64,000 nucleotides of DNA from an uncultured Candidatus Saccharibacteria bacterium (lineage in GTDB: Bacteria > Patescibacteriota > Minisyncoccia > UBA6257 > 2-01-FULL-56-20): the NCBI GenBank assembly GCA_964365185.1, contig CAYIOP010000002.1:2684-66683 (forward strand), read 5' to 3'. The notes beneath the pieces were generated by a model, which searched no databases, had not been told where the DNA came from, and saw only the letters and a list, made by a program, of their open reading frames with translations. Positions within the stretch are counted from its first letter, which is position 1; each line of letters begins with the position of its first letter. Both the position numbers and the translations under genes were made by a program. Positions 4,050-43,879 of the stretch are shown here, one piece after another.

Positions 4050-4084
4050 CTTATTATAGCTAAATCAACAAATTAACCAAATTT

Positions 4085-4354
4085 AATGTTTAGCGCTAAA
4101 CATTCACTTTTCTTTTATCAGCCGATAAGTCGATAAAACCTACGTTTTTTGAAAAAACACTCAAAACAATGTTTAGCGCTAAACATCGATAATTAATCCA
4201 TAAACCGATAAGCCCGTAGAATCTAGATTTTTGCGAATTTTACTGAAAACAATGTTTAGCGCTAAACAATTTCTATCGTAGTAATCCGGCAAAATATACT
4301 ACTATATATAGTATTGCCGCATTTCCGTATATTAAGATGTTTAGCGCTAAACAT
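4085..4354. promoter_or_regulatory. array of four near-identical 18-20-bp perfect palindromes (A)ATGTTTAGCGCTAAACAT(T) with ~84-bp period, in the ruvA/yraN divergent intergenic region
   Basis: Copies at 4085-4104, 4169-4186, 4252-4268 (one mismatch) and 4337-4354. The sequence between copies is also partly repeated (ccgataag..aaaacaatg). Candidate operator array. Confidence 0.45.
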
Positions 4355-13267: not shown

Positions 13268-14410
13268 TTATTTCAAACCAAAAGAATAGAGTTTGTTGTC
13301 GTAGCGATTAATAAAGAAAATTTCACTTTCCGTTTTTTGGGGATTGATCATATCTAAGCCCTCGCCATCAAAAATTTTTTTAATTTCTCCGTCGCTCAAC
13401 TTAATTTTATAAAAAGCGTCATTCGAAAAGAAATTCTTTTTTAAATAATCATCCGGTAATCTAAATTGGGAGAAAGCTGTTTGGTCGCGATGGATGGCGC
13501 AATTTAAAAATTCAATCGCCACTTTTTTAGTACTGGTTTCGCTGCCGGTCTCCGCGCTAAAAAAACATTTTGAAGGCAAAGTGCTCCAAGCCAGTTTTTT
13601 AGCCCAATTCGCTTTTTGGTCCATTACTTCCAAGCGCCCCTCTTCCAATTTTAAAAATTTATTTCCCTTGTCGTCAAAAATCAACTCTAATCCTTTTTTA
13701 TTTCTCATCCAGAGTGTCAGGTTTCGGCTGGTTAAATTAAATTTCCAAATAGAACTCTCAAGCTCCGCGCTACTCGGCTCAATTAACAATAATTCGTCGG
13801 TCTTAACCCAATTTAAATCTATATCTTGAAGCTGGATCTTTAAAATTTCTCGAGGCGTTGATCTAGCGCTCGCTAAGTCCAGCGTCCCCAGAGATCCTCC
13901 GTTTTTCTCGGAAAAATAAGCGATGCGGTTGTCCAAGGGTGACCAATCCGCGGCTTTGATTCCTACGTCAAGTGGCCGCCAGGTTTTTTTCTCGGTGTCA
14001 AAAACGCTCCACTGAATTTTCTCCCACCCCTTCCCGAATTTAACCAACACCTTTTTCCCGTCCCAAGAAAATTTGGCTAAGGCCAAATCTTGAACTACGA
14101 CCGAGCTTAATGTTTGCTCTTCGTCTTTTAAAATTTTGGAAATCTGTCCATCCGGATGAACCACAATTATCGTCCCGTCTTTTTGGATAAAATAATTTAA
14201 GACCAAATCTTGGCTGATTAATTTAGTATTCTTGGTTAATTCTCCCAAACCCCCTCCGCCATTAACTTCTTCTTCGTTTGGCAAAATTAGCTCTTCTCCA
14301 TTGCCGCTTCCTTCTTGGTTGGGTTGTTTTTGTCGAATTAAATATCCAGCGACAAGCAAGATAGCTGCCGCAACCACCACCGAACCAATAATTAAATAAC
14401 GCTTCATCAT
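13268..14410 (-). CDS. membrane-anchored hypothetical protein with beta-propeller (TolB/PD40-like) repeats
   Basis: N-terminal TM; repeated W/F-x-(S/P)-DG-K/N patterns (FSWDGKKVLV, WSPLDNRIAYFS). First gene (3'-most) of the minus-strand T4SS-like cluster. Confidence 0.35.
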   Translation of the reverse strand: MMKRYLIIGSVVVAAAILLVAGYLIRQKQPNQEGSGNGEELILPNEEEVNGGGGLGELTKNTKLISQDLVLNYFIQKDGTIIVVHPDGQISKILKDEEQTLSSVVVQDLALAKFSWDGKKVLVKFGKGWEKIQWSVFDTEKKTWRPLDVGIKAADWSPLDNRIAYFSEKNGGSLGTLDLASARSTPREILKIQLQDIDLNWVKTDELLLIEPSSAELESSIWKFNLTSRNLTLWMRNKKGLELIFDDKGNKFLKLEEGRLEVMDQKANWAKKLAWSTLPSKCFFSAETGSETSTKKVAIEFLNCAIHRDQTAFSQFRLPDDYLKKNFFSNDAFYKIKLSDGEIKKIFDGEGLDMINPQKTESEIFFINRYDNKLYSFGLK

Positions 14411-14420
14411 TAATGAGTTA

Positions 14421-15317
14421 TTAATTTTTGCAATTAGTTATATCGCTTGGCAACAGGGGCAAACAAACACTGCTACTACAGGTATCAATTATATCGCTAC
14501 AACTATTTGAATTACTGCAAAGCAATTTGTACCCGGTCGGCTGACTTGAATCGTTTTGAGTGCAGCCAAATTTAGTTGCTCCGCCGCCTCCGCCAGTGGG
14601 GCCGCCCAAGCTGTAGCAACTGCCACCATTGCAATAGCCGCCCCCGTTATTTTCCATCGATTCATTGCATGATTGAGGGTTTAACCCAGCCGGACAATTG
14701 CCGTCTGGTATTATGCAATTTCCAGCCGAACAAACTTGTCCTAGTCCGCTGCAATTAGCCGACTCAAAACAACTTCCCGGCTCAACGCAGATATTATTAG
14801 GCGCGCAAATCAACCCTTCGTTGCAAGGGATAGCGGGCGTGCTGGTGCTCTGGATGCATATTCCTCCGACCGTGCCCGGCGGAATGCCCGGCAAAATTAC
14901 ATTTTTCCCCGTAATTTTTTTTAGTGTCGGAAGTTTTAGCTGGGTTAATTTTGGATTAATCGTGTTTAATACAACAAACGCGCCCGCCAAAAGCAAAAGT
15001 CCCAAAAGCGCCTGCTTGATTCGGTCTTTAGCATCTCCCTTGCGCGAAGGATTATCTGCCGAGAGCGTGTATTCAATACCTCCCCAAATCACCACCACAA
15101 AAGCCAGTAGCCCGCCCATCAGCAAGGCGTATTGATAAAGATTGCTGATGAGCCCAGCTGGGTCAGGATTTTTTTGGCTGGCTGGAATTGAGCCGGGAAT
15201 ATTGGGATTAATTTGCGCCGGATCAATCGTTGTTTCATCTGCCTGCGCCAAAGAAATCATCATCCCTCCTACTAATATTATCCCCGCCAATATCAAAAAA
15301 AATTTATAGTGCCTCAT
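14421..15317 (-). CDS. candidate T4SS pilin (TrbC/VirB2-like topology) with a long Cys/Gly-rich C-terminal extension
   Basis: Signal peptide, then two hydrophobic helices separated by a short charged loop (LLMGGLLAFVVVIWGGIEYTLSADNPSRKGDAKDRIKQALLGLLLLAGAFVVL). This is followed by ~150 aa rich in Cys, Gly and Ser. Confidence 0.35.
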   Translation of the reverse strand: MRHYKFFLILAGIILVGGMMISLAQADETTIDPAQINPNIPGSIPASQKNPDPAGLISNLYQYALLMGGLLAFVVVIWGGIEYTLSADNPSRKGDAKDRIKQALLGLLLLAGAFVVLNTINPKLTQLKLPTLKKITGKNVILPGIPPGTVGGICIQSTSTPAIPCNEGLICAPNNICVEPGSCFESANCSGLGQVCSAGNCIIPDGNCPAGLNPQSCNESMENNGGGYCNGGSCYSLGGPTGGGGGATKFGCTQNDSSQPTGYKLLCSNSNSCSDIIDTCSSSVCLPLLPSDITNCKN

Positions 15318-15322
15318 TAATT

Positions 15323-16033
15323 TTATTTTACAAAAGTTAATTTAATTTCCCGCGACGCCCGTTCGGTAAATTTTCTGGGATTTGAGACATTTAAAGTTGT
15401 TTTTAATTCAAAATTCGGCGCCACCTCTTGGTTTAAAACAACACTTAATTGATTTGATTTTTCGTTTTTTGCCGCTGGTCGGTCGTTAACTTTCCAAGAA
15501 AATTCAAGCTCCCCTTCGTTCTGAACGTTAAAAAAATACGGCTTAGCTAAAATTTGAATTCCTCGGTTTGAAAATTTATTTTCAAAAAACGGAGCAATTA
15601 GCGTCACCTCTGGCCTCACCGAGGGAATTAAAATGTTTTTAATAAGCATCCGCCCCTTATAATCTAGAATTTTAATTCTTAATTCCTGTTCTCCTGTCCC
15701 CACTACTCTAAAAGATGTCTTTTGGATGCCCACTCCGGTTTTAATCAAATCATCATTTAAATACCAGTAAATTTCGTTTTTAGAAAGGTTAACCAATCTT
15801 CCCGCATCAATTATTTCAAAGGCCGCTGAAATCAGCGAAGAATCAGTCGGCAAAATCTTGCCGGTAAATTCCGCTGGCGCGTAAGTATTAGCTCTCCAGG
15901 TGATTAAAAAATCTGGCTCCTTGGTCTGCGCCCGGGCTGTCAGGCCAAAAATTATTGCCAGCACCATTCCTAAAAACAGAATTATTACCCCGAATTTTAT
16001 CAGTTGTGGCCTATTGAATCCTATAAAAATCAT
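15323..16033 (-). CDS. hypothetical membrane-anchored protein (T4SS-like cluster)
   Basis: 236 aa, single N-terminal TM, beta-rich periplasmic part. Confidence 0.4.
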   Translation of the reverse strand: MIFIGFNRPQLIKFGVIILFLGMVLAIIFGLTARAQTKEPDFLITWRANTYAPAEFTGKILPTDSSLISAAFEIIDAGRLVNLSKNEIYWYLNDDLIKTGVGIQKTSFRVVGTGEQELRIKILDYKGRMLIKNILIPSVRPEVTLIAPFFENKFSNRGIQILAKPYFFNVQNEGELEFSWKVNDRPAAKNEKSNQLSVVLNQEVAPNFELKTTLNVSNPRKFTERASREIKLTFVK

Positions 16034-16219
16034 TTTAACTTTTTAATTATACCAGCTTTCTTCTTTGTTTCTAAACTGATAATTATCCACCATACTCCCT
16101 TCTGTTTTTGAAAATTGGGCATTGCTTACCCGCCGAAATCTTGATGAAGGCGGGATAATTGAAAATTTCTATCGTTTCTCCGTTGTATTACCACTGTATT
16201 TCTATGGCCTCTCTATTTT

Positions 16220-16834
16220 CTACGCCGTCATCCTGTAATCATTTTCTTCTTCGTCATCTTCGGGTTTTGCCTGCGGCTCCGGCAATTTTCGGGTAATATC
16301 CATCACTTTTTCTATTGGCTCTTTTTCTATACCAAAGGCCTCTTCTGAAACCTTAGGGGTTCCTGTTTCTTTTAACCCTCCTTCAGTTTTTGAAACAGCT
16401 TGGCCCGCTTCAGAACCACGAGCTGAACCCTTTGCTAATCCCTCGCTCGGAGCGCCTCCTCTTGGAGTTTGAACGCTTTTTTTAGGCATTCCCTTTTTGC
16501 CCCCAGCGCTTTGGCTAATTTGTACGGCTTTTGCCGCCGCGGATTCTGGATGTCTGTCGGCGTATACTGTCATCCAAAAACCAATTGTGAGGAGTGGCAG
16601 ATCTCCCACCCAAGGGATAAGTTCTGTCAGCCAAGACACTCCCATTCGGCCAAATCCTAAGCCCCTAAACCACAAATATATAACTATTATCGACGCCAGG
16701 ATGTCTCCTAGCCAGAAGTCATCTAAACCAAAAAAAATCAAAATAAGTTCAATCCCGTCAATTAAAATTAAATATATCGAAATCAGAACAATCTCTACTG
16801 TCTTAAGCTTTGGCTTCGGTTTCTCTTCATCCAT
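16220..16834 (-). CDS. hypothetical polytopic membrane protein with acidic C-terminus (T4SS-like cluster)
   Basis: 204 aa, 3 predicted TM segments. Its start codon is embedded in the left TIR of repeat copy 2. Confidence 0.4.
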   Translation of the reverse strand: MDEEKPKPKLKTVEIVLISIYLILIDGIELILIFFGLDDFWLGDILASIIVIYLWFRGLGFGRMGVSWLTELIPWVGDLPLLTIGFWMTVYADRHPESAAAKAVQISQSAGGKKGMPKKSVQTPRGGAPSEGLAKGSARGSEAGQAVSKTEGGLKETGTPKVSEEAFGIEKEPIEKVMDITRKLPEPQAKPEDDEEENDYRMTA

Positions 16835-16964
16835 GCTCCGTAGGAAATTAAATATTTTTTGTTAATTTGTAAACGACGTTTTCATATTATCTTACTTTGT
16901 CATAATTCTGCTAAATTATATTAGCTCAAAAATATTTTATTTTTCGTTATTTCCTACGGGGCAT
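16832..16964. repeat. 133-bp TIR element, copy 2 (CATGCTCCGTAGGAAAT ... ATTTCCTACGGGGCAT)
   Basis: Same length and ends as 3323-3455. The internal sequence is AT-rich with shared blocks (ttttgtaaa, gttttcat). Confidence 0.55.
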
Positions 16965-16978
16965 ATTTTATCTATAAT

Positions 16979-18736
16979 CTACGATTTTCCCTCTAAAATC
17001 TGTTGTGGATTCGTGGTGATAATTTTATCCTCAAAATAGGAAGCGATAATTTGAATCGAAACGTGTCTTCGGCCGGCAAAAAATAATCCTGTTCCCACTT
17101 CGGCTGTTAAAAGTAAACTTTTTTCCGCTTCAGTTAAACCAAAAGCCTTAGCCACGATATCAATGGTAGCCGGCGATTGTTTTAAAAGAATCTGAATTGA
17201 GGAGTTGGTGATAATCGGCCGGCCGTAAGGCGAGCGCAAAAAGTCCTCCACGTCTTGAGTAATAGTCGAGACCCCTAAGTAATATTTTCGAGCCCGTTTC
17301 ACCAGTCCAAAAAGGAAAATGGCGCTGTCTTCATATTTCATCATCCACCACGCCTCGTCGATAATTAAAAGCCGTTTTTTGAGTTGAGCGCGGGTTAAAT
17401 TCCAAATAAAATTTAAAATTATATACATCGCAATTGGCCGGAGCTCTTCTTCTAGATCGCGAATCGAAAAAACAATCAATCGGTTATTAACATTAATGTT
17501 GGTCGGCTGGTTAACAAATCCCGAAAAGCTACCTTTAGTGTATTTATAAAGTCGCTCCGCAATTCCTTTGCCCCCTTCCAAATTCCGTAAAACCGTCTCT
17601 AAATCTTCAAGCAGCGGTGCCTTCGCTCCGGTAAAATCCTCCCCAGCCACAATTTCGCGCGAAGCATAGGTTTCGGTAATTGCTCTATCCAAAAGCGCGT
17701 CTTCCACCGCCGTCACTTTGCCAAGCATTAGTTTAACCAGTCCTGCCATATTCACGATGTGAGACCGCAGAACATCCGATGCCGTCTCTCCGTCCGGAAT
17801 AGTTGGCACGTCAAACGGGTTAATGTGTTCGTCCGACGAGAGCGAGATATTAAAGAAACTTCCTCCAAAGGCCTCACATAACCTCTGGTATTCGTTTTCT
17901 GGGTCAATCACAATTACATCCACTCCGGTCATTAAGTAGCGGATAATCTCCAGTTTGGTAGTGTAGGATTTGCCTGAACCGGACTTGGCAAAAACTACCT
18001 GATTGGCGTTTTCAAGCGAAAACCGGTCAAAAATAATCAAATTATTATTGTGCCGGTTGATGCCGTACATAATGCCCTGGCTGGAGTTTAAGTCCTCAGA
18101 AACAAACGGAAAAAAAGAAGATACTGGCCCAGAATTCATTGGTGATTTCACATCGATTTTATCTTCTACGAGCGGGAAAATGGATTGCAACCCTTCAAGT
18201 TGTTGGAAAAGAGCGGGCTTAATATAAATCAGTTTCGCGTCCAAGATATTTACAACATGGCTTTCTAGTTTTGAGAGTTCCTCTAGGGTGTCTCCATAGA
18301 TGGCAATATAAACTCCCAAATCAAATAATTTTTCCTGGGCTTGTTGCAGAGAATCTCTTAAGGATTCCACGTCTTGAAGAGCGGTCTCTAGCATCGGGTC
18401 TCTCACTAAGCCCTTTTCTTGTTGGTCATTGATTTGGGATTCTATTTGAGCTGATTTTTTTCTTAAATTTTTAAGGGCAATGCCGGTGTCGATTGGATTT
18501 ATAAAAAGTGAGACGTCAAAAATGTTAGGCAAATTAATAAAGGGCTCAAACCAGCCGGTCGAGAGATAGCGTGGATAAGAAAAAACAAAAAACGTCTTGA
18601 CGAATTTGTCGCCGATTTTAAGGTAATTTGAATTCACCTGAACGCCGGCCGGCGAAATTATTTTTTTTGTTTCTTTAAAATTATTTTCCATATCTTTACA
18701 CTTCCTTTCCCGGAATATTTTGAAGTTCTTTTTCAA
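16979..18736 (-). CDS. VirB4/TrbE-family conjugal transfer ATPase, C-terminal ATPase portion
   Basis: Walker A FAKSGSGKSYTTK, Walker B LLIIDEAWWMM; TrbE/VirB4 C-terminal domain organisation. Confidence 0.75.
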   Translation of the reverse strand: MKKNFKIFRERKCKDMENNFKETKKIISPAGVQVNSNYLKIGDKFVKTFFVFSYPRYLSTGWFEPFINLPNIFDVSLFINPIDTGIALKNLRKKSAQIESQINDQQEKGLVRDPMLETALQDVESLRDSLQQAQEKLFDLGVYIAIYGDTLEELSKLESHVVNILDAKLIYIKPALFQQLEGLQSIFPLVEDKIDVKSPMNSGPVSSFFPFVSEDLNSSQGIMYGINRHNNNLIIFDRFSLENANQVVFAKSGSGKSYTTKLEIIRYLMTGVDVIVIDPENEYQRLCEAFGGSFFNISLSSDEHINPFDVPTIPDGETASDVLRSHIVNMAGLVKLMLGKVTAVEDALLDRAITETYASREIVAGEDFTGAKAPLLEDLETVLRNLEGGKGIAERLYKYTKGSFSGFVNQPTNINVNNRLIVFSIRDLEEELRPIAMYIILNFIWNLTRAQLKKRLLIIDEAWWMMKYEDSAIFLFGLVKRARKYYLGVSTITQDVEDFLRSPYGRPIITNSSIQILLKQSPATIDIVAKAFGLTEAEKSLLLTAEVGTGLFFAGRRHVSIQIIASYFEDKIITTNPQQILEGKS

Positions 18737-19376
18737 TCGTTTCCGGATTATAGAAATTATAAAAAAGCTCCACTAAGGCCTGGTCGTCTAAAAGAATCGC
18801 TTCTAGTCCGATTACGCTTAAGCCCTCAATAATTTGGTTTGATCGCTGGTTAATCTTGCTGACGTTTTCTTTAAACTCCAATTCTTTATTTTGTTCTTCT
18901 TGTTTTGGTTCCGGCGCTTGCTTTTTAAAAAACGGAATAAATTTAGTGATTCCCGCCACACTTTCTTTGCTTGGCAGATTAATTAAATTTAATGGCACCA
19001 CCACCAAAAATGTCTTCTCCATAATAGCGTTTTCATGAACAAACCCGCTGATAAATTGTTGGTATTCTCCAATTTGATTTCGGAGAAGGGGCGACGGTTC
19101 ATCGGCTTTTCTCGCTTCCAAGTTATTTAAATATCTTTCGATATTCACTTTTCTCGAATGAATGATGATTTGAATCGGAAAATCCAAGCTGTTTAAAAAA
19201 TTTTGATAACCCGACGAGATAATATCCATTTCACTCTCCGACATTAAAGCCGTATTTAACCCCGCCACCATCACTACCTGTCGCAGTCCTCCGTCTTTTA
19301 ATAGCACGACACTCTCTTTAATCTCCTCAATCTCCACCAAATCCTGAGTATTGGCTAGTTGTTGTTTTAGGGCCAT
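18696..19376 (-). CDS. probable N-terminal portion of VirB4 (separate frame, 41-nt overlap with the ATPase ORF)
   Basis: 226 aa. The two ORFs together total ~811 aa, the size of a full VirB4. They share strand, are adjacent and differ in frame by 1 nt. Confidence 0.4.
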   Translation of the reverse strand: MALKQQLANTQDLVEIEEIKESVVLLKDGGLRQVVMVAGLNTALMSESEMDIISSGYQNFLNSLDFPIQIIIHSRKVNIERYLNNLEARKADEPSPLLRNQIGEYQQFISGFVHENAIMEKTFLVVVPLNLINLPSKESVAGITKFIPFFKKQAPEPKQEEQNKELEFKENVSKINQRSNQIIEGLSVIGLEAILLDDQALVELFYNFYNPETIEKELQNIPGKEV

Positions 19377-19447
19377 AAAAATAAGTTCAATATATATTCT
19401 TCCTTCAATTATACTTTTACTTTGTCATTGAGTGAAGCCCTGACATA

Positions 19448-19924
19448 AGAGCTAAAAACGAAAAACTAAAAACGCAAAGTAAAGAATTAAGGGTTACCCT
19501 TTCTCTTTTTAAGGGTTAAGATGCTGGAGCCAAGAATATTAGCGATTTCAGTTGTTTCTTGTATCAATAATTCAACCTCTTCTAGGTTAGCTTTCTTAGC
19601 ATCTCTAAGTAAATACAGCCAAAACTTGCTCTCGTTGGCGGATTTTAAAGCATAACTAAAAAAATTAGTGAAGTCCTTTCTCGTGCTTCCAGCTTGAGCT
19701 TCAATAATATTCGCGCCTATACTAGTAGCGCTTCTCAGTAATTGCTTCGCGATTATTTGAACCGCTAAATCTTTTTTATCGAGGTTATCAATAAATTTTA
19801 TAATCTTCAAAGCCAATGAATAAGATTTCTTTTTTGAATCCATTCTTATTTTATATCTTTACACTTTTCGTTTTTAGCTTCTAATTAAATTCTACTTTAC
19901 GTTTTTCGCTTTTCGTTTTTAGCT
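19448..19924. mobile_element. IVS-like cassette: four-helix-bundle gene bracketed by ~30-bp imperfect inverted repeats
   Basis: Left IR agctaaaaacgaaaaactaaaaacgcaaagtaaag (19451-19484). Right IR ctttacgtttttcgcttttcgtttttagct (19896-19924). An extra direct copy cttttcgtttttagct lies at 19864-19880. Confidence 0.4.
19487..19843 (-). CDS. four-helix-bundle protein (23S rRNA intervening-sequence protein family)
   Basis: LAVQIIAKQLLRSATSIGANIIEAQAGSTRKDFTNFFSYALKSANESKFWL is the characteristic family core. Confidence 0.8.
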   Translation of the reverse strand: MDSKKKSYSLALKIIKFIDNLDKKDLAVQIIAKQLLRSATSIGANIIEAQAGSTRKDFTNFFSYALKSANESKFWLYLLRDAKKANLEEVELLIQETTEIANILGSSILTLKKRKGNP

Positions 19925-20449
19925 TTAACGGTAGTCCACCCTCCTCGCCGCTTTCCTCTCTCCGGTGATTTTCTCCAAAATTTGGTATTTTTCTTTAACC
20001 TTTTCCGAAAATTGTTTGGCGCTGGTTAAGCTTTCTTTGGTGCCGGTTTGAAGTTTTTGCCATTTTCCTTTTAAAGAAAGGCCCATCACGATATTTTCGA
20101 TCGACAATCCCGGCCGAGCCATTTTTTTAATTTCCTCGTCTTTTTTCACCTCTGATTTATCTAGAGTTGGTTTATCGGACTTCCAAACATAGGTTTGTGG
20201 TTGCCAGTAAAATTTTAAAGCTGAAAGCATTATCGTGGTAAAAGGCCGGCCGTTAATTTTAATAAAAGCCATCGAGCCGCCTACCGCCACCATTAGCAAG
20301 GTTAAAATCAGCCATAGCCAGGTTTTGACCATAAAAAATAGCAGAAAACTTAACCCCACCATCGCTCCGATATAAAAGAATTGTCTTAAGGTTAGGGGTC
20401 CAACTATTTTGTCTTCGGTTTCAATAAATTGAGGAACTTGAAATTGCAT
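19925..20449 (-). CDS. small two-TM membrane protein, VirB3/PrgI-like candidate
   Basis: 174 aa; two adjacent TM helices near the N-terminus; sits immediately upstream of the VirB4 ORFs, as VirB3 does in canonical T4SS. Confidence 0.35.
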   Translation of the reverse strand: MQFQVPQFIETEDKIVGPLTLRQFFYIGAMVGLSFLLFFMVKTWLWLILTLLMVAVGGSMAFIKINGRPFTTIMLSALKFYWQPQTYVWKSDKPTLDKSEVKKDEEIKKMARPGLSIENIVMGLSLKGKWQKLQTGTKESLTSAKQFSEKVKEKYQILEKITGERKAARRVDYR

Positions 20450-20484
20450 AAGTACATTTGATCTACAATATCTCTATTATCTCT

Positions 20485-20520
20485 CTATCACCTTTCGTCT
20501 ACAACCTAACACCTAATTTA
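20485..20520. repeat. heptamer-tract repeat (tctatcacctttcgtctacaacctaacacctaattt)
   Basis: Intergenic, upstream of the VirB3-like gene. Confidence 0.4.
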
Positions 20521-20524
20521 ATTA

Positions 20525-22138
20525 CTAAACTTTCTTAAGTGTTTCCAAGTCAATCTTTCCATTCTCCGGATTTAAATTCTTCGAATCCAAAGATATATTC
20601 TGCGGTTTTATGTCCGCGGTTTTAGGAGCTCCCTCTTGAAAAAATTTACCATCTTGTTTACTCGAGAAGAAATCATTTGTCTTAACACTTCCTTTGTTTA
20701 ATTCATCCGGTCTTTGAGGCAAGGGGGTGGGGGGCATTTTTATCTCCGGAGTCAATTTCTTATTTCCTCCGAAAAGCGATTTAAACCAATTTTTCTTCTG
20801 TGGCTCGGCTTCATAAGCCGGCAGTGAGCTTATCTGGTCTGCTCCATAATTAATTTTAGCCACTGGTTTTGGGATTGTTGGCTGCGGCATTTTATTGATC
20901 GGTGTTTCGGTTAGGGGTTTATTTAAATCAACCTTGTTGAATCGATTTAAATCCACCACCGGTTTTCCGGTTAAATCCATCGCCGGTTTTTGAAAGGCGG
21001 GTTTATTGATTGCTTCATTCGGTAAATTAGCTGGTCTCTCAAGCGGCGTCTGAAAAGAACTGTAGTGAACCACTTTTGGCGGCTTAATCACCTCTGATTT
21101 GGAAAATTCTTCACTGCTTTTTTTATCTTGTCTGCCAATTTCGATTCTAACAGGCCCCCTATCCTCGCCAGGCCTAATCATCTCGAACGTCGGGGACGGA
21201 GCTTCGATTTTAAAAGCCGCCTCTCTTTTCATCGGCGCCGAATTTAGCTCTTGATGAAGAATTAAAGGTTTCTCTGTTTCAATAGGGCGAACATTCGTTT
21301 TTGCTTCGAAGCTAGAAATTTTTGGAGTCGCCGTGATTTCAGTTGCCCCAACTTCTTGTTCTTCGTGTTTTTTAAGCACCCCGATTAATTCCGCGCCTGA
21401 CCGCTCTAATTTTTTAATTTCTTCCACAATCCCTAAAACATCGTTTTTTTGTTCCCAAGATAAGGCCGCTGGTTTTGGCGGCTCAATTGGTTTTTGAGCT
21501 GGCTGGATTTTTGGCGCTGGCGGCTGAGGAATCGGTATTTCTCTGGCTTGTGTCATGCTGCCGCTTAAATTCACCGGCATTATCGTTTCTATCTCGTCTA
21601 ACATCTTTGGCGCCACCTTTGGTTGCGCCTGAATTGGTTGAGGCTTTAAAGCCGGCTTAATTTCACCTTCCTTTTCTTTGGCCACTGTCCTTTCTATATT
21701 TTCCATCATGACCGGCGGCCTTTGGGTTTGAGTTATTGGTTGCTTTCTTTCTTCGGTTGTTTTAAAAGCCGCTTTTTCAAGTTCCAAATCCATTCCTACT
21801 CGCGATTCCTTGGTTACGGGAGCGTAAAGTTTCTCAAGCTGACTGCGATAAGGCGCAAAGAGCCGATTACCCAATGTTTTGGAAACATTCTCCGCGATTT
21901 TAATGTCGATTTTAAGAGCTTCCTGAAGTTCGCGCGCCACTTCCTCTGGGTGTAAAAATCCCATTATCACATAACCGGCGATTCTGGAAATTATTGGAAT
22001 TCTATCAACTGGAATATGTTCGGTCTCCGCAATTCGGTCTAAAATTTCCACGCTGTGTTCCGATACCAAAACCTCCCGCAGATTTTCTGGCAGAGTATCC
22101 CATCGCTGTAGAGCTTGTGATTTTGGAACAATAGTCAT
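20525..22138 (-). CDS. proline-rich hypothetical protein (T4SS-like cluster)
   Basis: 537 aa; central P/Q/K-rich low-complexity region (PIPQPPAPKIQPAQKPIEPPKPA). No catalytic motif. Confidence 0.45.
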   Translation of the reverse strand: MTIVPKSQALQRWDTLPENLREVLVSEHSVEILDRIAETEHIPVDRIPIISRIAGYVIMGFLHPEEVARELQEALKIDIKIAENVSKTLGNRLFAPYRSQLEKLYAPVTKESRVGMDLELEKAAFKTTEERKQPITQTQRPPVMMENIERTVAKEKEGEIKPALKPQPIQAQPKVAPKMLDEIETIMPVNLSGSMTQAREIPIPQPPAPKIQPAQKPIEPPKPAALSWEQKNDVLGIVEEIKKLERSGAELIGVLKKHEEQEVGATEITATPKISSFEAKTNVRPIETEKPLILHQELNSAPMKREAAFKIEAPSPTFEMIRPGEDRGPVRIEIGRQDKKSSEEFSKSEVIKPPKVVHYSSFQTPLERPANLPNEAINKPAFQKPAMDLTGKPVVDLNRFNKVDLNKPLTETPINKMPQPTIPKPVAKINYGADQISSLPAYEAEPQKKNWFKSLFGGNKKLTPEIKMPPTPLPQRPDELNKGSVKTNDFFSSKQDGKFFQEGAPKTADIKPQNISLDSKNLNPENGKIDLETLKKV

Positions 22139-22156
22139 TTAATTTAAAAATTAAAT

Positions 22157-24307
22157 TTATTCTTTTTCTCCTCCGCCTCCTCCATAGCTAAAGCCGCCTA
22201 AACCAACGGAGTTTCTCACCATAGAATTTTTAAAGTTTTCTACATTTTGTCTCATTTTTTCATCTAGTCTTGTTATTCTTTGAATTTGCGCTTCAGTTTC
22301 CAGAGAAGAAGGAAGGCCGGCTAGTCGGCTCATTTCTATTTTATAGCCAGCCAGCTCTTGTTCCATGGCGCCCTGATAAGATGGGGCGAAATTTTCTAAA
22401 GTCGAGGCCCTGGATTTTGAAATAACATTTGGCACTAACGAAGGCATGCTCGCTGTCATTCCATGGGCTACACTCCAACCTAGTTCCTTTAGAGTATTTT
22501 CGTCTAATCCCATTTTAGCTTTACCACTAAACATATCATTGATGTGCATAAGCGCCACATCTTTTTTCTCAAAAGTTTTATAAAATTCTCTCGCCGCCTC
22601 ATCAATTTTATCTCTTGAAGCCCCCCCTCTTTTTAAATTCATCATCTCTACATTTACCGTGCTCGCCTTTTCTAGTTTTTCGAAAGCTTTTTTCTGGTCA
22701 TATTGTTCATAAAGTTTTTTATTTCTATCATTAATAGTTGAATGAATATTTAAATCACCCAATTCTCCACGTTTCATTAATTCCTGTTCAATGGCTATTT
22801 TTTCTTCATTTGTAGCTGAAAGATGTTTGGTCTTTAGAACGCTATCAGAAAGTCCTTTTATTCTTTCTGCCGCCGCCTTCACTAAGTTTTCTCCCCCAGC
22901 CACCCTAAGTTGTGTTAACCCCGTTGCTCCCGCTCCCAGTCCTTTAGCCGCAAGGCCAGCGCCAAAGAATCTGGCTAATTTTGACCTATCTCTAAGCCCC
23001 TGAAGTCCCGAGGTAGCGGCTTTTAATCCCTTCTCAGCCCTAACAACCCCAGCCACTTTTCCAGCCGCCCTAATTCCTTTCCCTTTTGCCCACCCGCCCA
23101 TCTTGCCGGCAAATCCTTTCATCGCCGCCATCCCCGCCGCGGCTCCGTGAATGCTTAAACTATTGGCCGCGAAAAGTCCGCCGATCGCAAGCCCCACCAT
23201 CAAAACCGCCTGGAGCGCGAACTCTATAATTGGCGAAAAAAGCCCGGTAAAAAATCCGGTCTCAAGCGCCTTAAATGTCGAACTGTGAGTTGAACCAAAC
23301 GAACCCGAAGCCCCCTGGCCTTCAGACATTGCGCTGTTAACCAGAACCACTAAATAAAGGAAGAAAACTACAATCGGCGCGAAAAATACTTGTTTTAAAA
23401 AAGTGTGCCACCACTTATCCCAGTTGCTTTTAAGTCCTGGGAATATCCACATTAACCACGCAAACGGCATCAATATCAGAAGAATGCCAATCGAAACATA
23501 CCGATAAAGCAACATCACCACCAATATTCCTAAAGTAATATTAATTGCCGCCAAGGTGAGTATGGTCACAAACAAAGAAGCAATTGGCAGGAGTAATTTA
23601 CCCATTGATTGTCCTATAATCGAGTTGGTACCCGAATTTTGGTCAACATCTTCTGTGGTTAACTCATTCGCGCCTGCTTCAAATAAAACCCCTTTCTGCG
23701 GATTAAAAGCTCCAGATAAAGCGGTGGCAAAATTATTAAAAGAATTCCCCTCTCCAGCCGGATTCACTTGTTCCAAAAAATAAATCGTCAGTTGGTCCGC
23801 AAAGTTTAAAATCGCGCCGGCAAAAACCAAACTAAAATTAACCAGCAAAGCCGCCACAATCAATTTCCACAAAATCTCTTTAATGCCATAGCCAGAGATG
23901 CGCAAGATAGTGGCAATGGCAATCACGATAATCGCCGCGGTAAATCCTAAATTAGCGATTGAAAGGGATACCGGAAACCCGAATTTAACCGCCGGCGAAT
24001 TCACAATCTGAGTGTTCAGGTTCAAAATCACTTCAATTATCCAGGTCTGAATAGCAATTCCTATGGCCGCGATCGTGCTTATAAGCCACGAAAATCCAAA
24101 CATGACTTTTCCGATTACCGTATAAGCAATGTCGCCAAAAAAATCCGCGTGCGTCTGTTGCGGCGCAAACAAAATTACAAATACCAATGGCGCCGCGAGC
24201 CCCAGCCCCCAAACAATCACCCGTCGTTTTCCCCAAAACCAATTTTTTATTTTAATCAGTTGACGCATTTTCATCTTTTTAATTTTAACCAGTTGCCGCC
24301 GGTTCAT
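22157..24307 (-). CDS. VirB6/TrbL-like polytopic membrane protein with Ala/Gly-rich C-terminal domain
   Basis: 716 aa; signal/TM, then >8 TM helices, then a hydrophilic A/G/K-rich tail. Position and topology match VirB6-like channel proteins. Confidence 0.45.
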   Translation of the reverse strand: MNRRQLVKIKKMKMRQLIKIKNWFWGKRRVIVWGLGLAAPLVFVILFAPQQTHADFFGDIAYTVIGKVMFGFSWLISTIAAIGIAIQTWIIEVILNLNTQIVNSPAVKFGFPVSLSIANLGFTAAIIVIAIATILRISGYGIKEILWKLIVAALLVNFSLVFAGAILNFADQLTIYFLEQVNPAGEGNSFNNFATALSGAFNPQKGVLFEAGANELTTEDVDQNSGTNSIIGQSMGKLLLPIASLFVTILTLAAINITLGILVVMLLYRYVSIGILLILMPFAWLMWIFPGLKSNWDKWWHTFLKQVFFAPIVVFFLYLVVLVNSAMSEGQGASGSFGSTHSSTFKALETGFFTGLFSPIIEFALQAVLMVGLAIGGLFAANSLSIHGAAAGMAAMKGFAGKMGGWAKGKGIRAAGKVAGVVRAEKGLKAATSGLQGLRDRSKLARFFGAGLAAKGLGAGATGLTQLRVAGGENLVKAAAERIKGLSDSVLKTKHLSATNEEKIAIEQELMKRGELGDLNIHSTINDRNKKLYEQYDQKKAFEKLEKASTVNVEMMNLKRGGASRDKIDEAAREFYKTFEKKDVALMHINDMFSGKAKMGLDENTLKELGWSVAHGMTASMPSLVPNVISKSRASTLENFAPSYQGAMEQELAGYKIEMSRLAGLPSSLETEAQIQRITRLDEKMRQNVENFKNSMVRNSVGLGGFSYGGGGGEKE

Positions 24308-26714
24308 CTCCGTCGCAATAAAACTTAGACGTTGGCTCTAAATATGAACTGTTTATATCAGCCCTCCATTTCTTTATACCCTCCAATCTCTCGTTGGCAT
24401 CTGATAAAGATAAACTAAGCATTTCAAAATCAAACCTAGTTTCTAACGATTGATTTAATTCTCGTACTTGCGAAGTGCTGGTGGTATTTTGAGCTTCATT
24501 GATAAAGTTATTGAGCCATGTGATCGAAGAACTCGCTTTATTAATTTCTTGTTGGAGTATAACTGGCTCTCTTGTTTCATAGTTCTTAATAGCAATTACC
24601 ATATTCGATAATCTAATAGGATCCCTATTGTCAGGTGGTCCATAATCATCCGCGCATAATACAAGCGATCTTTTCAGCACGTCAATGGTTAAAGGTATTT
24701 CCGGTAAATAAGAGCTATATTGGGCAAGAGTCAGGACTAGAATTTCTCGATAACCCTCTGCCAATTTTATCAAAGTGCTGGTCGGCTGAACTGAATTAAT
24801 CTCATTAATTTCTTGCGCGTCGCGAACGCAATCCCGATATTCCTGCGACTCCAAATTATAAGTGGCGCAAGTGGTTGTATAATCTTCTACTTCGTTTCGT
24901 CTATTTGAAACCAAAGCTAACCCTTCCGCTCCTTTTTGAAACATTTTATTAATTAAAGAATCCACAAAAGCGGTCGCAATCGCTATTAAATCATTGGAAT
25001 TAACAATCCAATCCAGATGTGCTCCAAGCGCTCTGTCGAGTGTCTCTGCCACTGCTTTGCCTGGTGTGGTATCTTCCCAGCCGTCTTGCGGGCAAACGTT
25101 AAACCATTTTAGTCCATCTGAATCCTGCTCTATCGGACCGATGTAATCTACTCCTGTCATTTTAGCTACTGCTTTTGCATCTTCCTCATCATTACCACTT
25201 AACGAACCTAATCTGGCCTCAACTTCTATAAAATCAATTGTTTTTCTCTTCTTACAAACTCGAGTTGTTAAAAATCCTTGGCTTGAACCGACTTTAAGCT
25301 GTTCTGCTTCTGCTTGCTTGGCGGATTTAGCCAGCGCCAAGTCGCTTAATTCAATCACCACTCCAAAATAATTATTCTGGGGTTTTAATACTTTGATATA
25401 ACTCTCAATTCCTCCAGCCCTAAAGTCATCATAAAAATCTTTTATATTTTCCGTCGCTTCATTCAGAGTGCATTTGAATTGTTTTTGAGTTCTTCTTTCT
25501 TCATTGCCCCGGGGAATTTCAAAACTTTTTATTATTAATCCCCTAAACCGTGAACAAAGCACTCCGGGCACAGTGATATTTGCCACCGCGCTTGAGAAGG
25601 TATTCACCGCGGCGTCTTTTAGAAAACCCGGGAAGTCCTGAACAAATTTTGGTTTACCGCCGCCCTGAATCCAATTGGTCGTTTGCTTCACAATCATATC
25701 TATTAGTTTCTTTTTAAGTTTTTCAGTTATTACTTGTTTAATCACTTTCCAAACATCACGCGCAAATATCTGAATATCGAAAACTATATCCCCAAACCCC
25801 AAAAATGCGTGAGCTTTCTTAATTGAAAAAATATTTACTAGAAATGAAATTGCTCCGTTCTGATTTTCTCCGCTCGAAAATTTATTTAATGCTTCGGCTT
25901 TTTTAAATTCATCTTCAAATTTACCAATCGCCTGATTGTAATTTTCTTCCTGCAGTCCAAAAACCAAACCGGTTTTAACCGGGTCAATTTGATCTTGAGC
26001 CAAAGTCAAAAAGTTTTTCTGATACAAAATAAGCTCCAAAAAACTTTTATGGAAATTAGCGAGCGGCTCCGGCACCTTAAGTGTTTTGGTTTTAATTATT
26101 GTTTGATCCAAAGCCAGCTCCACCGAACCCATAACTGTCTCTGGCGACGACTCGCTCAAAAAATTTGATAACCCGGTTTTAACAAAATTTTGTTCAATGA
26201 TTTCATTAAAGTTAGCAATATATTGAGCAACATCTTCCTGACTGGAATTTTTAATTATTTTAAAATCATTACTTTCTTTTTCTAATTCCCCCCTAACTTT
26301 ATTAATTTCCTCTCCAATTGCTTGAGGATTAGATATTGCCGCGGCCGAAGCGATTACATCTTGAGTTACGACATTCACCTTGTCAGAGATTAAACCCCCT
26401 TCTTCGGGATTTAGCGTTGCCATCTTTTCAGTCAATTTTCGCGCCAGATTTTCTGTTAGATTAGAGGGGTCTTCAGCCGGAGGCAACTCAACTTCACTAT
26501 TTTGAACCAGCGCCTCTGGTTGTTGAATTAGTGTTTCAATAAAAGCGCTTTTATTATTTTGACCATTTTCGGCTTTTGTCCCGGCTTCTATTTCAAAATC
26601 ACTATTTATGGTTGGTTTTTTTGAGTCCAATAAGCCGCCTAAAACAAAAGTCAACGAGCCAGCCATCAGCGCAAGTAGCAAAAAACTGGTGATGAGTTTT
26701 TTCGGATCAGCCAT
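24285..26714 (-). CDS. large secreted/surface hypothetical protein (T4SS-like cluster)
   Basis: 809 aa, N-terminal signal/TM, no recognisable catalytic motif. First gene of the minus-strand cluster. Confidence 0.4.
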   Translation of the reverse strand: MADPKKLITSFLLLALMAGSLTFVLGGLLDSKKPTINSDFEIEAGTKAENGQNNKSAFIETLIQQPEALVQNSEVELPPAEDPSNLTENLARKLTEKMATLNPEEGGLISDKVNVVTQDVIASAAAISNPQAIGEEINKVRGELEKESNDFKIIKNSSQEDVAQYIANFNEIIEQNFVKTGLSNFLSESSPETVMGSVELALDQTIIKTKTLKVPEPLANFHKSFLELILYQKNFLTLAQDQIDPVKTGLVFGLQEENYNQAIGKFEDEFKKAEALNKFSSGENQNGAISFLVNIFSIKKAHAFLGFGDIVFDIQIFARDVWKVIKQVITEKLKKKLIDMIVKQTTNWIQGGGKPKFVQDFPGFLKDAAVNTFSSAVANITVPGVLCSRFRGLIIKSFEIPRGNEERRTQKQFKCTLNEATENIKDFYDDFRAGGIESYIKVLKPQNNYFGVVIELSDLALAKSAKQAEAEQLKVGSSQGFLTTRVCKKRKTIDFIEVEARLGSLSGNDEEDAKAVAKMTGVDYIGPIEQDSDGLKWFNVCPQDGWEDTTPGKAVAETLDRALGAHLDWIVNSNDLIAIATAFVDSLINKMFQKGAEGLALVSNRRNEVEDYTTTCATYNLESQEYRDCVRDAQEINEINSVQPTSTLIKLAEGYREILVLTLAQYSSYLPEIPLTIDVLKRSLVLCADDYGPPDNRDPIRLSNMVIAIKNYETREPVILQQEINKASSSITWLNNFINEAQNTTSTSQVRELNQSLETRFDFEMLSLSLSDANERLEGIKKWRADINSSYLEPTSKFYCDGDEPAATG

Positions 26715-26774: not shown

Positions 26775-26850
26775 ATCTATCACCTACTGCGTCCGTCCGA
26801 AGCTTTAAGCGAAGGCGGATAACCTATCATCTAAAACCTCTCACCTAACT
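26775..26850. repeat. intergenic copy of a ~36-bp core repeat (ctactgcgtccgtccgaagctttaagcgaaggcgga) flanked by heptamer tracts
   Basis: The core at 26784-26819 is almost identical to the core at 27051-27086 inside ksgA. Confidence 0.5.
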
Positions 26851-34639: not shown

Positions 34640-34740
34640 TGACGCTGTTAGAAACCCAATTCTCTATAAGGGTTTTGTAAGTAATTTTATGACTTAGGCC
34701 TTTTGGCTAGGAAGAAAATTACTTACAAAACCTGTAATTG
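34640..34740. repeat. conserved hairpin element (18-bp perfect stem ggttttgtaagtaatttt / aaaattacttacaaaacc; loop contains TTGGCTAGGA), copy A
   Basis: The loop and surrounding sequence are shared with 43743-43879. Confidence 0.4.
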
Positions 34741-43742: not shown

Positions 43743-43879
43743 TAGCGCTGTTCGGAAATCATATTATACTTAATTTTTTTCTACCGGTTCTCGGAGAGAT
43801 TTTCTGATTTAGACCCTTTGGCTAGGAGGAAAATTTCTTCAAGAACCTACGGTTATTGGGACTTTTCGAACAGCACTAT
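43743..43879. repeat. conserved hairpin element copy B (loop gatttagaccctttggctaggagg) nested in the outer inverted repeat gctgttcggaaa / tttcgaacagc
   Basis: Shares the loop TTGGCTAGGA(G/A)GAAAAT and surrounding sequence with 34640-34740. Confidence 0.4.

What the first reader, a model, noticed from the sequence alone, without database searches (positions are those of the whole stretch)
14421..15317. Pilin-like protein with a ~150-aa Cys/Gly/Ser-rich C-terminal module and a local GC spike
The N-terminal part has the signal-peptide plus two-helix hairpin topology of TrbC/VirB2 pilins. It is fused to a low-complexity tail with >25 Cys (CNEGLICAPNNICVEPGSCFESANCSGLGQVC...). The tail is encoded by a conspicuously GC-rich stretch (~14540-14900) in an otherwise AT-rich genome. 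A disulfide-knotted tip or adhesin domain on a conjugative-type pilin would be unusual. The compositional island suggests separate origin or strong codon constraint.
Basis: partly seen in the sequence, partly recalled or inferred. Interest (0 to 1): 0.55.

Follow-up and report, generated by a model that had tools for sequence, protein, structure and literature searches.

The report
Secretion-system pilin with disulfide-rich variable tail

Summary
The ORF at 14421-15317 (minus strand, 298 aa) is real. Its N-terminal half passes Pfam's threshold for PF18895 (T4SS_pilin). It has a signal peptide and a confident two-helix hairpin.

It is the only such gene in a chromosomal type IV secretion cluster (PrgI/VirB3-like, split VirB4, VirB6-like) next to jag-yidC-dnaA-dnaN. 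This arrangement was described for Patescibacteria in 2025.

The tail holds 18 Cys, not more than 25, in three modules. It matches no Pfam, PDB-sequence or PDB-fold family. Every detected relative is another pilin fusion.

Orthologues at the same position in related groundwater genomes carry tails with 22, 24 or 32 Cys. Every Cys is kept between close relatives, while the other residues diverge much faster than in the pilin domain. The Cys count is even in 30 of 31 tails with six or more Cys. This points to an extracellular disulfide scaffold with variable loops.

The GC spike is real (0.53 against 0.40). Amino-acid composition with the genome's own codon usage predicts 0.51, so foreign origin is not needed.

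Best reading: a pilin or membrane subunit that displays a hypervariable adhesin-like knob. Polymerisation and binding are untested. This is a new variant of a known kind, of moderate interest.

The parts
14421..15317 (-). Whole gene: 298-aa PF18895 pilin-family protein with a Cys-rich C-terminal extension (stop codon at 14421-14423).
   Evidence: ORF. PF18895 scores 37.1 bits against a cut-off of 26.6. A 100%-identical protein, P0001, lies on a groundwater metagenome contig with the same neighbours.
15240..15317 (-). Signal peptide, residues 1-26 (MRHYK + hydrophobic core + A-Q-A, with predicted cleavage before D27).
   Evidence: Hydrophobic segment at residues 3-27 and helix 2-24. Homologues keep an equivalent leader (alignment A1). 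The cleavage site is read by eye with the -3/-1 rule; no predictor was run. An internal AGGAGGG before M19/M20 explains the shorter 279-aa public gene call.
15153..15239 (-). Mature N-terminal Pro-rich segment, residues 27-55, with the conserved INPNIPG motif.
   Evidence: I40, P41 and G42 are invariant in A1. pLDDT is below 50 for residues 27-41.
15063..15152 (-). Hydrophobic helix 1, residues 56-85.
   Evidence: Kyte-Doolittle segment 59-85. AlphaFold2 helix 53-85 at pLDDT of about 76-94. Lies inside the PF18895 match at residues 55-119.
15021..15062 (-). Short polar loop, residues 86-99 (SADNPSRKGDAKDR), holding most of the family's conserved DAKDRI motif; its last residue, I100, falls in helix 2.
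   Evidence: A96, K97 and D98 are nearly invariant and I100 is invariant. The loop has 4 K/R and 3 D/E.
14958..15020 (-). Hydrophobic helix 2, residues 100-120.
   Evidence: Kyte-Doolittle segment 99-122. AlphaFold2 helix 90-120 at pLDDT of about 90. A103, G106, L109 and L117 are invariant.
14859..14957 (-). Lys/Pro-rich linker, residues 121-153 (NPKLTQLKLPTLKK...).
   Evidence: N121 and P122 are conserved. The linker has 5 K and no acidic residue. pLDDT is 59-73.
14715..14858 (-). Cys module A, residues 154-201: 8 Cys with spacing 10,5,5,5,5,6,4.
   Evidence: This is the only tail part modelled with moderate confidence: pLDDT is 70-80 across it in the full-length model, while the 73-84 reached in the tail-only model covers just its first 33 residues (154-186) and drops to 66-68 beyond them. 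Its opening motif GGxC...CxxGxxC...C is shared with orthologues.
14613..14696 (-). Cys module B, residues 208-235 (CPAGLNPQSCNESMENNGGGYCNGGSCY): 4 Cys.
   Evidence: The same motif occurs in P0002, P0007, P0010 and, twice, in P0036. It occurs in no other ORF of the window or of the fetched loci.
14571..14612 (-). Gly-rich spacer, residues 236-249.
   Evidence: Sequence. pLDDT is below 50.
14424..14570 (-). Cys module C, residues 250-298: 6 Cys, the last one 3 residues from the C-terminus.
   Evidence: Aligns to the C-terminal end of P0036. A terminal Cys near the C-terminus is also seen in P0003, P0006 and P0008. pLDDT is below 50, so the fold is unknown.
13268..26714 (-). Surrounding type IV secretion cluster, with the same gene order in relatives (the three upstream genes were not compared in every locus): p809, VirB6-like p716, p537, PrgI/VirB3-like, a four-helix-bundle gene, VirB4 N-terminal (TraC-like) gene, VirB4 ATPase, p204, p236, the pilin and p380. 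It is bounded by jag/yidC/dnaA on one side and ksgA on the other.
   Evidence: Pfam and NCBIfam scans. The same gene order is found in loci L001, L002, L005 and L007.

Best explanation
The gene encodes the single VirB2-like (PF18895) pilin-family subunit of the chromosomal, origin-proximal type IV secretion system of a Patescibacteria (CPR) bacterium.

Proposed route (inferred):
- After Sec export and probable leader cleavage, the two conserved hydrophobic helices sit as a hairpin in the membrane.
- The short DAKDRI loop faces the cytoplasm, or the lumen if the protein polymerises.
- Both termini face outside.
- The 145-aa C-terminal region therefore lies outside the cell. Its 18 Cys form about 9 disulfides that hold three small modules together.

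Shown:
- Family membership.
- Hairpin architecture.
- Gene context.
- The conservation pattern of the tail: Cys invariant, loops diverging fast, and module number differing between orthologues.

Inferred:
- The hairpin docks on, or polymerises from, the VirB3/VirB4/VirB6 machine as VirB2 pilins do, so the tail decorates the outside of the filament or stub.
- The tail acts as the contact or adhesin surface towards the host cell, with its variability tracking host or receptor differences.
For: Family and fold:
- PF18895 is above threshold at residues 55-119.
- The helix hairpin has pLDDT of about 88-94, and there are three hydrophobic segments.
- It is the only PF18895-like ORF in the 64 kb window.

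Context:
- The gene lies in one co-oriented, tightly spaced gene run. It starts 5 bp after p236 and ends 10 bp before p380. The run also holds PrgI and a VirB4-like ATPase (NF045971, 390 bits).
- Synteny is the same in three related species.
- Identity to those orthologues falls from VirB4 84-86% and DnaA 80-83% to pilin domain 52-58% and tail 28-37%, with the tail alignable only in part.

Tail as a disulfide scaffold:
- Between closer orthologues 32/32, 24/24 and 24/24 Cys align, while non-Cys identity is 0.41-0.66 against 0.68-0.85 in the pilin domain.
- The Cys number is even in 30 of 31 tails with six or more Cys, and in all 22 tails with at least two Cys among the ordinary pilins, 21 of them under 70 aa.
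- The tail has no hydrophobic segment.

Literature:
- Patescibacteria type IV secretion clusters near dnaA carry VirB2-like pilins and usually no relaxase; no PrgB-like adhesin was found in that survey (PMC12102498).
- The pilin array is essential in S. epibionticum (PMC10633639; PMC12857230).
- CPR genomes are enriched in MdbA-like oxidoreductase and VKOR, which could make extracytoplasmic disulfides (bioRxiv 10.1101/335083).
- From my own knowledge, not tested here: in solved F and T pili both pilin termini lie on the outer surface and the inter-helix loop lines the lumen.
Against: - No pilus has been seen for any Patescibacteria type IV secretion system (PMC12857230 calls it a 'potential').
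- Homology to true VirB2/TrbC could not be shown. There is no PF04956 hit, no pilin among the PDB profile hits, and hhalign against eight bona fide VirB2 sequences gives probability 3.2%.
- A domain of 145-280 aa on every subunit may be hard to pack on a thin filament. This is my own estimate.
- The charge distribution gives no clear positive-inside signal: the loop is net +1 and the linker is +5.
- Only module A is modelled with any confidence. No ligand-binding fold was recognised.
- No disulfide-forming enzyme is encoded in this window.
Confidence: 0.55

Rival explanations
1. Membrane-anchored surface protein that does not polymerise. The pilin-like hairpin serves only as a two-helix anchor, or as a docking piece on the secretion machine. 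It holds a disulfide-rich ectodomain at the cell surface.
For: - The tail is large relative to ordinary family members, whose median tail is 11 aa.
- The same hairpin is fused in other proteins to unrelated C-terminal domains, for example a sub-threshold CHAP domain in P0028. This suggests it can act as a general carrier.
- No Patescibacteria type IV secretion pilus has been observed.
Against: - The hairpin is far better conserved than a plain anchor needs. Identity is 52-58% between species whose neighbouring surface proteins are only 23-46% identical. Loop and helix residues are invariant.
- It is the only pilin-family gene in the cluster.
- Both readings place the tail outside the cell, so they differ only in polymerisation.
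Confidence: 0.3
2. The tail is a cargo. It would be a Cys-rich toxin-like or lectin-like peptide released from the pilin carrier by proteolysis and delivered to the host.
For: The weak, non-significant Foldseek neighbours of the tail model are small disulfide-rich toxins, hevein-type lectins and EGF or IGFBP domains (all E > 1).
Against: - None of those matches is significant, and most of the model is low-confidence.
- No conserved cleavage motif lies between the hairpin and the tail.
- The conserved genes adjacent to the pilin are all 200 aa or longer, not small immunity-type genes; none was tested for an immunity role.
- Ordinary family members carry a single 4-Cys cap of only about 25 aa. 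That looks structural rather than a payload.
Confidence: 0.07
3. The Cys-rich tail is a recently acquired foreign segment (a compositional island), or a target of a diversity-generating retroelement.
For: - The local GC is 0.53 against 0.40.
- A four-helix-bundle (PF05635, Avd-like) gene lies in the same cluster.
- The tails are hypervariable.
Against: - GC3 is equal in tail and head (0.46 and 0.47) and within the range of the neighbours.
- Composition plus host codon usage predicts GC 0.509 against 0.531 observed.
- Orthologous tails occupy the same position in related genomes.
- No direct repeat (template/variable pair) touches the gene.
- No reverse transcriptase was found among the ORFs of 100 aa or more that were taken as genes and scanned.
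Confidence: 0.03

Closest known systems
Patescibacteria VirB2-like pilins (Pfam PF18895 T4SS_pilin), including the essential pilin array of Southlakia epibionticum ML1
   Same: - The domain is the same, above Pfam's threshold, with a leader plus two-helix hairpin.
- The gene is encoded beside PrgI and VirB4 in a relaxase-less chromosomal cluster near dnaA, as described in PMC12102498.
   Different: - Ordinary members are 102-178 aa with a median tail of 11 aa. This one carries 178 residues after the hairpin, with 18 Cys.
- It is a single gene here, not an array.
- The papers I read do not mention long Cys-rich extensions.
Conjugative pilins VirB2 / TrbC / TraA of Gram-negative type IV secretion systems (PF04956 and relatives)
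   Same: - Long leader, two hydrophobic helices joined by a short polar loop, and a gene in a VirB3/VirB4 cluster.
- A related pilin fusion, P0027, gives a sub-threshold PF04956 hit (E 9e-4).
- hhalign pairs the equivalent pre-helix-1 and helix-1 regions.
   Different: - There is no significant sequence link for this protein.
- True VirB2 genes lie directly between virB1 and virB3. This one lies two genes downstream of virB4.
- To my knowledge no VirB2 or TraA carries a large extra domain, and the host here is a monoderm.
Mycoplasma ICE pilin-like protein (NCBIfam NF045849, Mbov_0395 family)
   Same: A weak match over the second half of the hairpin (residues 69-120, E 8.9e-5). The neighbouring VirB4 also matches the Mycoplasma-type VirB4 model.
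   Different: The score of 22.1 bits is well under the cut-off of 40, so it is not a member. Those proteins are about 80 aa long and have no tail.
Surface adhesins of Gram-positive conjugation systems (e.g. PrgB)
   Same: The proposed role is the same: target-cell contact for a monoderm type IV secretion system. This is a functional analogy only.
   Different: - There is no sequence or domain similarity.
- PrgB-type adhesins were not found in Patescibacteria (PMC12102498).
- Here the candidate adhesin is fused to the pilin itself.
Small disulfide-rich modules (EGF-like, hevein/WGA, knottin toxins, IGFBP N-domain, granulin, antifreeze)
   Same: Short Cys-framed units of about 25-50 aa with Gly, Asn and Ser between the Cys. 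These appear as the top Foldseek neighbours, none of them significant.
   Different: - No Pfam hit even at E <= 10.
- No PDB sequence hit other than chance SOD matches.
- All fold matches have E > 1.
- A search of 1.84 billion representative proteins finds only the protein itself and one other pilin fusion.

Membership tests
PF18895 T4SS_pilin (Patescibacteria VirB2-like pilins) | Score above Pfam's gathering threshold on the family HMM | tested here: met
   37.1 bits against 26.6, at residues 55-119 and model positions 7-70 of 71. The precomputed Pfam label on the identical protein P0001 agrees.
PF18895 T4SS_pilin (Patescibacteria VirB2-like pilins) | Leader peptide plus two hydrophobic helices joined by a short polar loop | tested here: met
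   Kyte-Doolittle segments at 3-27, 59-85 and 99-122. AlphaFold2 helices 53-85 and 90-120 with pLDDT 88-94.
PF18895 T4SS_pilin (Patescibacteria VirB2-like pilins) | Encoded in a cluster with VirB4 and VirB3/PrgI | tested here: met
   VirB4-like ATPase at 16979-18736 and PrgI at 19925-20449. The order is the same in L001, L002, L005 and L007.
PF18895 T4SS_pilin (Patescibacteria VirB2-like pilins) | Small size (about 100-180 aa, little beyond the hairpin) | tested here: not met
   This protein is 298 aa, with 178 residues after helix 2. The 120 best profile hits are 102-178 aa, with a median tail of 11 aa and a maximum of 81. This makes it an extended variant; size is not a formal criterion for Pfam.
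TrbC/VirB2 conjugative pilins (PF04956) | Detectable sequence homology to bona fide VirB2/TrbC | tested here: inconclusive
   There is no PF04956 hit at E <= 0.1. A profile of the domain finds no pilin in PDB sequences; the best hit is E 0.21, to unrelated membrane hairpins. hhalign against 8 annotated VirB2/TrbC sequences gives probability 3.2% and E 0.014 over 37 columns. The homologue P0027 has a sub-threshold PF04956 hit.
TrbC/VirB2 conjugative pilins (PF04956) | Polymerises into an extracellular pilus | not testable with these tools
   This needs microscopy or biochemistry. No multimer prediction was available.
Known Cys-rich domain families (knottin, granulin, antifreeze, EGF, hevein) | Significant sequence or fold match of the tail | tested here: not met
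Sortase-anchored repetitive cell-wall proteins | C-terminal LPXTG motif followed by a hydrophobic stretch and a basic tail; repeat units | tested here: not met
   There is no LPx[TSA]G motif. The tail has no hydrophobic segment and no tandem repeats.
Diversity-generating retroelement target | Template/variable repeat pair and a nearby reverse transcriptase | tested here: not met
   No repeat touches 14421-15317. No RT domain was found among the window ORFs scanned. Only this 64 kb window could be examined.

The most novel reading that the evidence does not exclude
Every subunit of a conjugative-type (VirB2-like) filament in these monoderm episymbionts carries its own disulfide-knotted, fast-evolving receptor-binding knob. 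The pilus would then be its own adhesin. The tail repertoire (18, 22, 24 or 32 Cys in co-occurring groundwater species) would set which host each Patescibacterium can attach to. This would supply the adhesin that surveys of Patescibacteria type IV secretion systems did not find.
Probability: 0.3. Interest if true: 0.7.

Novelty: new variant of a known kind. Interest (0 to 1): 0.42.

Why it matters
[quoted passage not shown] It lacks a relaxase, and its function is described as completely unknown (PMC11665869). Whether it makes a pilus and what contacts the host are open questions (PMC12857230). No adhesin was found in a survey of 3,035 genomes (PMC12102498).

A pilin-family subunit fused to a hypervariable, disulfide-scaffolded ectodomain is a concrete candidate for the host-contact surface. 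The pattern of conserved hairpin and variable tail gives a simple experiment: express the tail, map its disulfides and test binding to candidate hosts. It also gives a marker for host-range differences in metagenomes.

The result also shows that Cys 'caps' on the C-terminus are common in this family, from 4 Cys up to 32. This bears on which end of the pilin is exposed.

Tried and rejected
1. Pfam on the tail alone at E <= 10 gave nothing. Orthologue tails gave only sub-threshold DUF7107 and Dumpy hints.
2. PDB sequence search with the tail gave only chance SOD hits.
3. An exhaustive phmmer search of the tail against 1.84 billion representative proteins found itself and one other pilin fusion, P0036. 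A profile of ten tails against 5.8 billion proteins returned only three pilin fusions. I therefore found no evidence that the modules occur outside this pilin clade.
5. The link to true VirB2 was tested with a PDB profile search and with hhalign against eight annotated VirB2/TrbC proteins fetched from plasmids. It was not significant.
6. Foreign origin of the tail was rejected on GC3 and codon usage.
7. A DGR or repeat-driven origin was rejected.
8. Rfam found no RNA family in the window.
9. A search for further pilin paralogues in the window found none.
10. A search for Dsb, MdbA or VKOR in the window found none.
11. The promoter and terminator scan was no better than shuffled sequence.
12. 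The positive-inside rule was not decisive.

Full report
**What is there.**
- The window holds an ATG-to-stop ORF of 298 aa at 14421-15317 on the minus strand.
- It has 18 cysteines, all between residues 154 and 296.
- The last 149 residues are dominated by Gly, Ser, Cys and Asn.
- Hydropathy shows three hydrophobic segments, at residues 3-27, 59-85 and 99-122, and none in the tail.
- AlphaFold2, run with a 35-sequence alignment, gives helices 53-85 and 90-120 at pLDDT of about 88-94. The start of the tail scores 70-80 and residues from about 230 onward score below 50.
- The leader ends in A-Q-A before D27, which I read by eye as a signal-peptidase site.
- A public gene call for the identical protein (P0001, 279 aa) starts at M20, behind an internal AGGAGGG. 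Homologues keep an equivalent hydrophobic leader, so I take the 298-aa form as correct. The tail ends up outside the cell under either start.

**The GC spike.**
- GC of 14540-14900 is 0.532 against 0.404 for the window. Only 0.66% of 360-bp windows are as high.
- The excess lies at codon position 2: 0.58 in the tail, about 0.33 in other genes.
- GC3 is 0.46 in the tail and 0.47 in the N-terminal half. Both fall within the 0.32-0.48 range of neighbouring genes.
- Feeding the amino-acid sequence through the window's own codon usage predicts 0.509 for residues 140-259, against 0.531 observed.
- The spike is therefore a by-product of a Gly/Cys/Ser/Pro/Ala-rich sequence. It is not a sign of foreign DNA.

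**Family and context.**
- Residues 55-119 score 37.1 bits on Pfam PF18895 (T4SS_pilin), above the cut-off of 26.6.
- NCBIfam gives only a sub-threshold match to the Mycoplasma ICE pilin-like family.
- The gene lies in a co-oriented minus-strand run, 5 bp after the upstream gene and 10 bp before the next. The run also holds:
  - a VirB4-like ATPase (NF045971, 390 bits);
  - a separate gene for the VirB4 N-terminal TraC-like part;
  - PrgI (VirB3-like);
  - a weak VirB6-like membrane protein;
  - several unannotated membrane or secreted proteins.
- The cluster is bounded by jag-yidC, dnaA, dnaN and a class A PBP on one side and by ksgA and uvrD on the other.
- No relaxase or coupling protein was found among the ORFs of 100 aa or more that were taken as genes and scanned.
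- This is the origin-proximal, relaxase-less type IV secretion cluster reported for Patescibacteria, especially Paceibacteria, in 2025 (PMC12102498).
- The identical protein lies on a contig whose record name is 'Hain_H43_01um'. Relatives come from MAGs titled Patescibacteria, Liptonbacteria and Paceibacteria.
- A local HMM of the pilin domain finds no second copy in the 64 kb window.

**Is it a true VirB2?** This could not be shown.
- There is no PF04956 hit.
- A profile of the domain finds no pilin among PDB sequences.
- Foldseek with the model finds only generic helical hairpins.
- I fetched eight annotated VirB2/TrbC proteins from plasmids. The profile-profile comparison gave probability 3.2%, although it pairs the equivalent pre-helix-1 and helix-1 regions.
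- One related fusion protein, P0027, has a sub-threshold PF04956 hit.
- 'VirB2-like' therefore rests on Pfam's family, on topology and on gene context.

**The tail.**
- It divides into three modules:
  - module A, residues 154-201, 8 Cys;
  - module B, residues 208-235, CPAGLNPQSCNESMENNGGGYCNGGSCY, 4 Cys;
  - a Gly-rich spacer;
  - module C, residues 250-298, 6 Cys.
- It has no Pfam match even at E <= 10.
- It has no meaningful PDB sequence match and no Foldseek match below E = 1.
- It has no LPXTG motif and no DNA repeats.
- An exhaustive search of 1.84 billion representative proteins finds only itself and P0036. P0036 is another pilin fusion; it carries module B twice and module C once.
- A profile of ten tails recovers only pilin fusions.
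- Module B also occurs in P0002, P0007 and P0010, and in no other ORF of the window or of the fetched loci.

**Comparative evidence.**
- Three related species have the same gene order, with a pilin at the same place.
- Identity to the window falls along the locus:
  - VirB4 84-86%;
  - DnaA 80-83%;
  - pilin domain 52-58%;
  - tail 28-37%, alignable only in part.
- Tail lengths in the three orthologues are 222-233 residues, with 22, 24 or 32 Cys.
- Between closer pairs every Cys aligns (32/32, 24/24, 24/24). Non-Cys identity in those tails is 0.41-0.66, against 0.68-0.85 in the pilin domain.
- The Cys number is even in 30 of 31 tails with at least six Cys. These proteins are related, so this is not a clean probability.
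- This is the signature of a disulfide scaffold with fast-evolving loops, which fits an oxidising, extracellular location.
- CPR genomes are reported to be enriched in MdbA-like oxidoreductases and VKOR. None lies in this window.

**How unusual is it?**
- The 120 best hits to the pilin-domain profile are 102-178 aa, with a median tail of 11 aa.
- However, 22 of them end in a Cys-bearing tail (21 of 25-67 aa, one of 81 aa) with 2, 4, 6 or 12 Cys, always an even number. Examples are ICTTVCPSGQVCLVNESGVGTCQSL and NCSPACVSPKQCITTDGQHWGCQ.
- In a neighbour-joining tree of the domains, 8 of the 9 members of the query's clade have Cys-rich tails of 99-234 aa. Other long tails are scattered among short pilins.
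- The gene is therefore the expanded end of a continuum, not a one-off.
- I found no mention of such extensions in the papers I read on these systems.

**Mechanism.**
- Shown: family, hairpin, context and conservation pattern.
- Inferred: with a cleaved or uncleaved leader and two further membrane helices, the C-terminus is outside the cell.
- If the hairpin assembles as VirB2 or TraA pilins do, the tail would coat the filament. In those pilins, from my own knowledge and not tested here, the termini lie on the outer surface and the loop lines the lumen.
- A rough estimate from F-pilus dimensions suggests a 16-kDa knob per subunit fits only at a larger radius, which the 33-residue Pro/Lys linker could provide. 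This is a guess.
- The main rival is that the hairpin is only an anchor or docking element. The strong conservation of the hairpin argues for specific protein contacts but cannot prove polymerisation.
- The toxin-cargo, foreign-island and DGR-target readings have little or no support.

**Verdict.** The pilin reading is right at the level of the Patescibacteria family. The 'separate origin' idea is not supported. The gene is a new variant of a known kind. Interest is moderate, because it offers a concrete candidate for the host-contact surface of an essential but unexplained secretion system.

Noticed in passing
window 19450-19924 (gene 19487-19843, minus strand): A 118-aa four-helix-bundle gene (PF05635 23S_rRNA_IVP, TIGR02436) sits between PrgI and the VirB4 N-terminal gene. 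It is bracketed by 32-nt inverted repeats that are 91% complementary (19450-19481 and 19893-19924). Orthologous loci carry 2, 0 or 1 copies at slightly different places (L002, L005, L007), so it looks like a small mobile cassette.
   Followed up: partly
window 16979-19376 (minus strand); L001, L002, L005, L007: VirB4 is encoded as two genes: a 226-aa TraC-like N-terminal part (PF26593) and a 570-585-aa ATPase. The split is present in all four related loci, so it is a lineage feature and not a frameshift artefact.
   Followed up: partly
proteins P0028, P0020 and P0027 (homologues, not in the window): The same pilin hairpin is fused to other C-terminal domains. P0028 has a sub-threshold CHAP amidase hit (22.9 bits against 26). 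P0020 and P0027 show, by eye only, His/Asp motifs reminiscent of M15-type peptidases; Pfam did not confirm this. Pilin-carried wall hydrolases could stand in for the often-missing VirB1.
   Followed up: partly
proteins P0038-P0136: 22 of the 120 best-scoring ordinary PF18895 pilins end in a short tail with 2, 4, 6 or 12 Cys, always an even number, often of the form C-x3-C-x5-C-x9-10-C. A disulfide 'cap' on the C-terminus seems to be a common and undescribed feature of the family.
   Followed up: partly
window 15261-15275: An internal Shine-Dalgarno-like AGGAGGG lies just before the codons for M19 and M20. This probably misled the public gene call (P0001, 279 aa, no leader). Upstream of the true ATG at 15317 there is only AT-rich sequence and no obvious Shine-Dalgarno motif.
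   Followed up: partly
window 4070-4268: Three copies of a 33-nt unit spaced 83 nt apart, each ending in the palindrome TGTTTAGCGCTAAACA. They lie in the ruvA / UPF0102 intergenic region. This may be an array of operator or binding sites.
   Followed up: no
window 26777-26839 and 27044-27106: A 63-nt direct repeat (87% identity) with an internal GC-rich hairpin. One copy is at the 3' end of ksgA and the other lies inside the ksgA reading frame.
   Followed up: no
window 34660-34733 and 43775-43848: A 74-nt hairpin-forming intergenic repeat (73% identity) at two distant sites. No Rfam family matches it.
   Followed up: no
window 13268-14410, 15323-16033 and 16220-16834 (minus strand): Three genes for membrane or secreted proteins (380, 236 and 204 aa) flank the pilin. 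Their positions are conserved in relatives, they have no family match, and they diverge fast between species (23-46% identity). They are likely further surface parts of the secretion system.
   Followed up: partly
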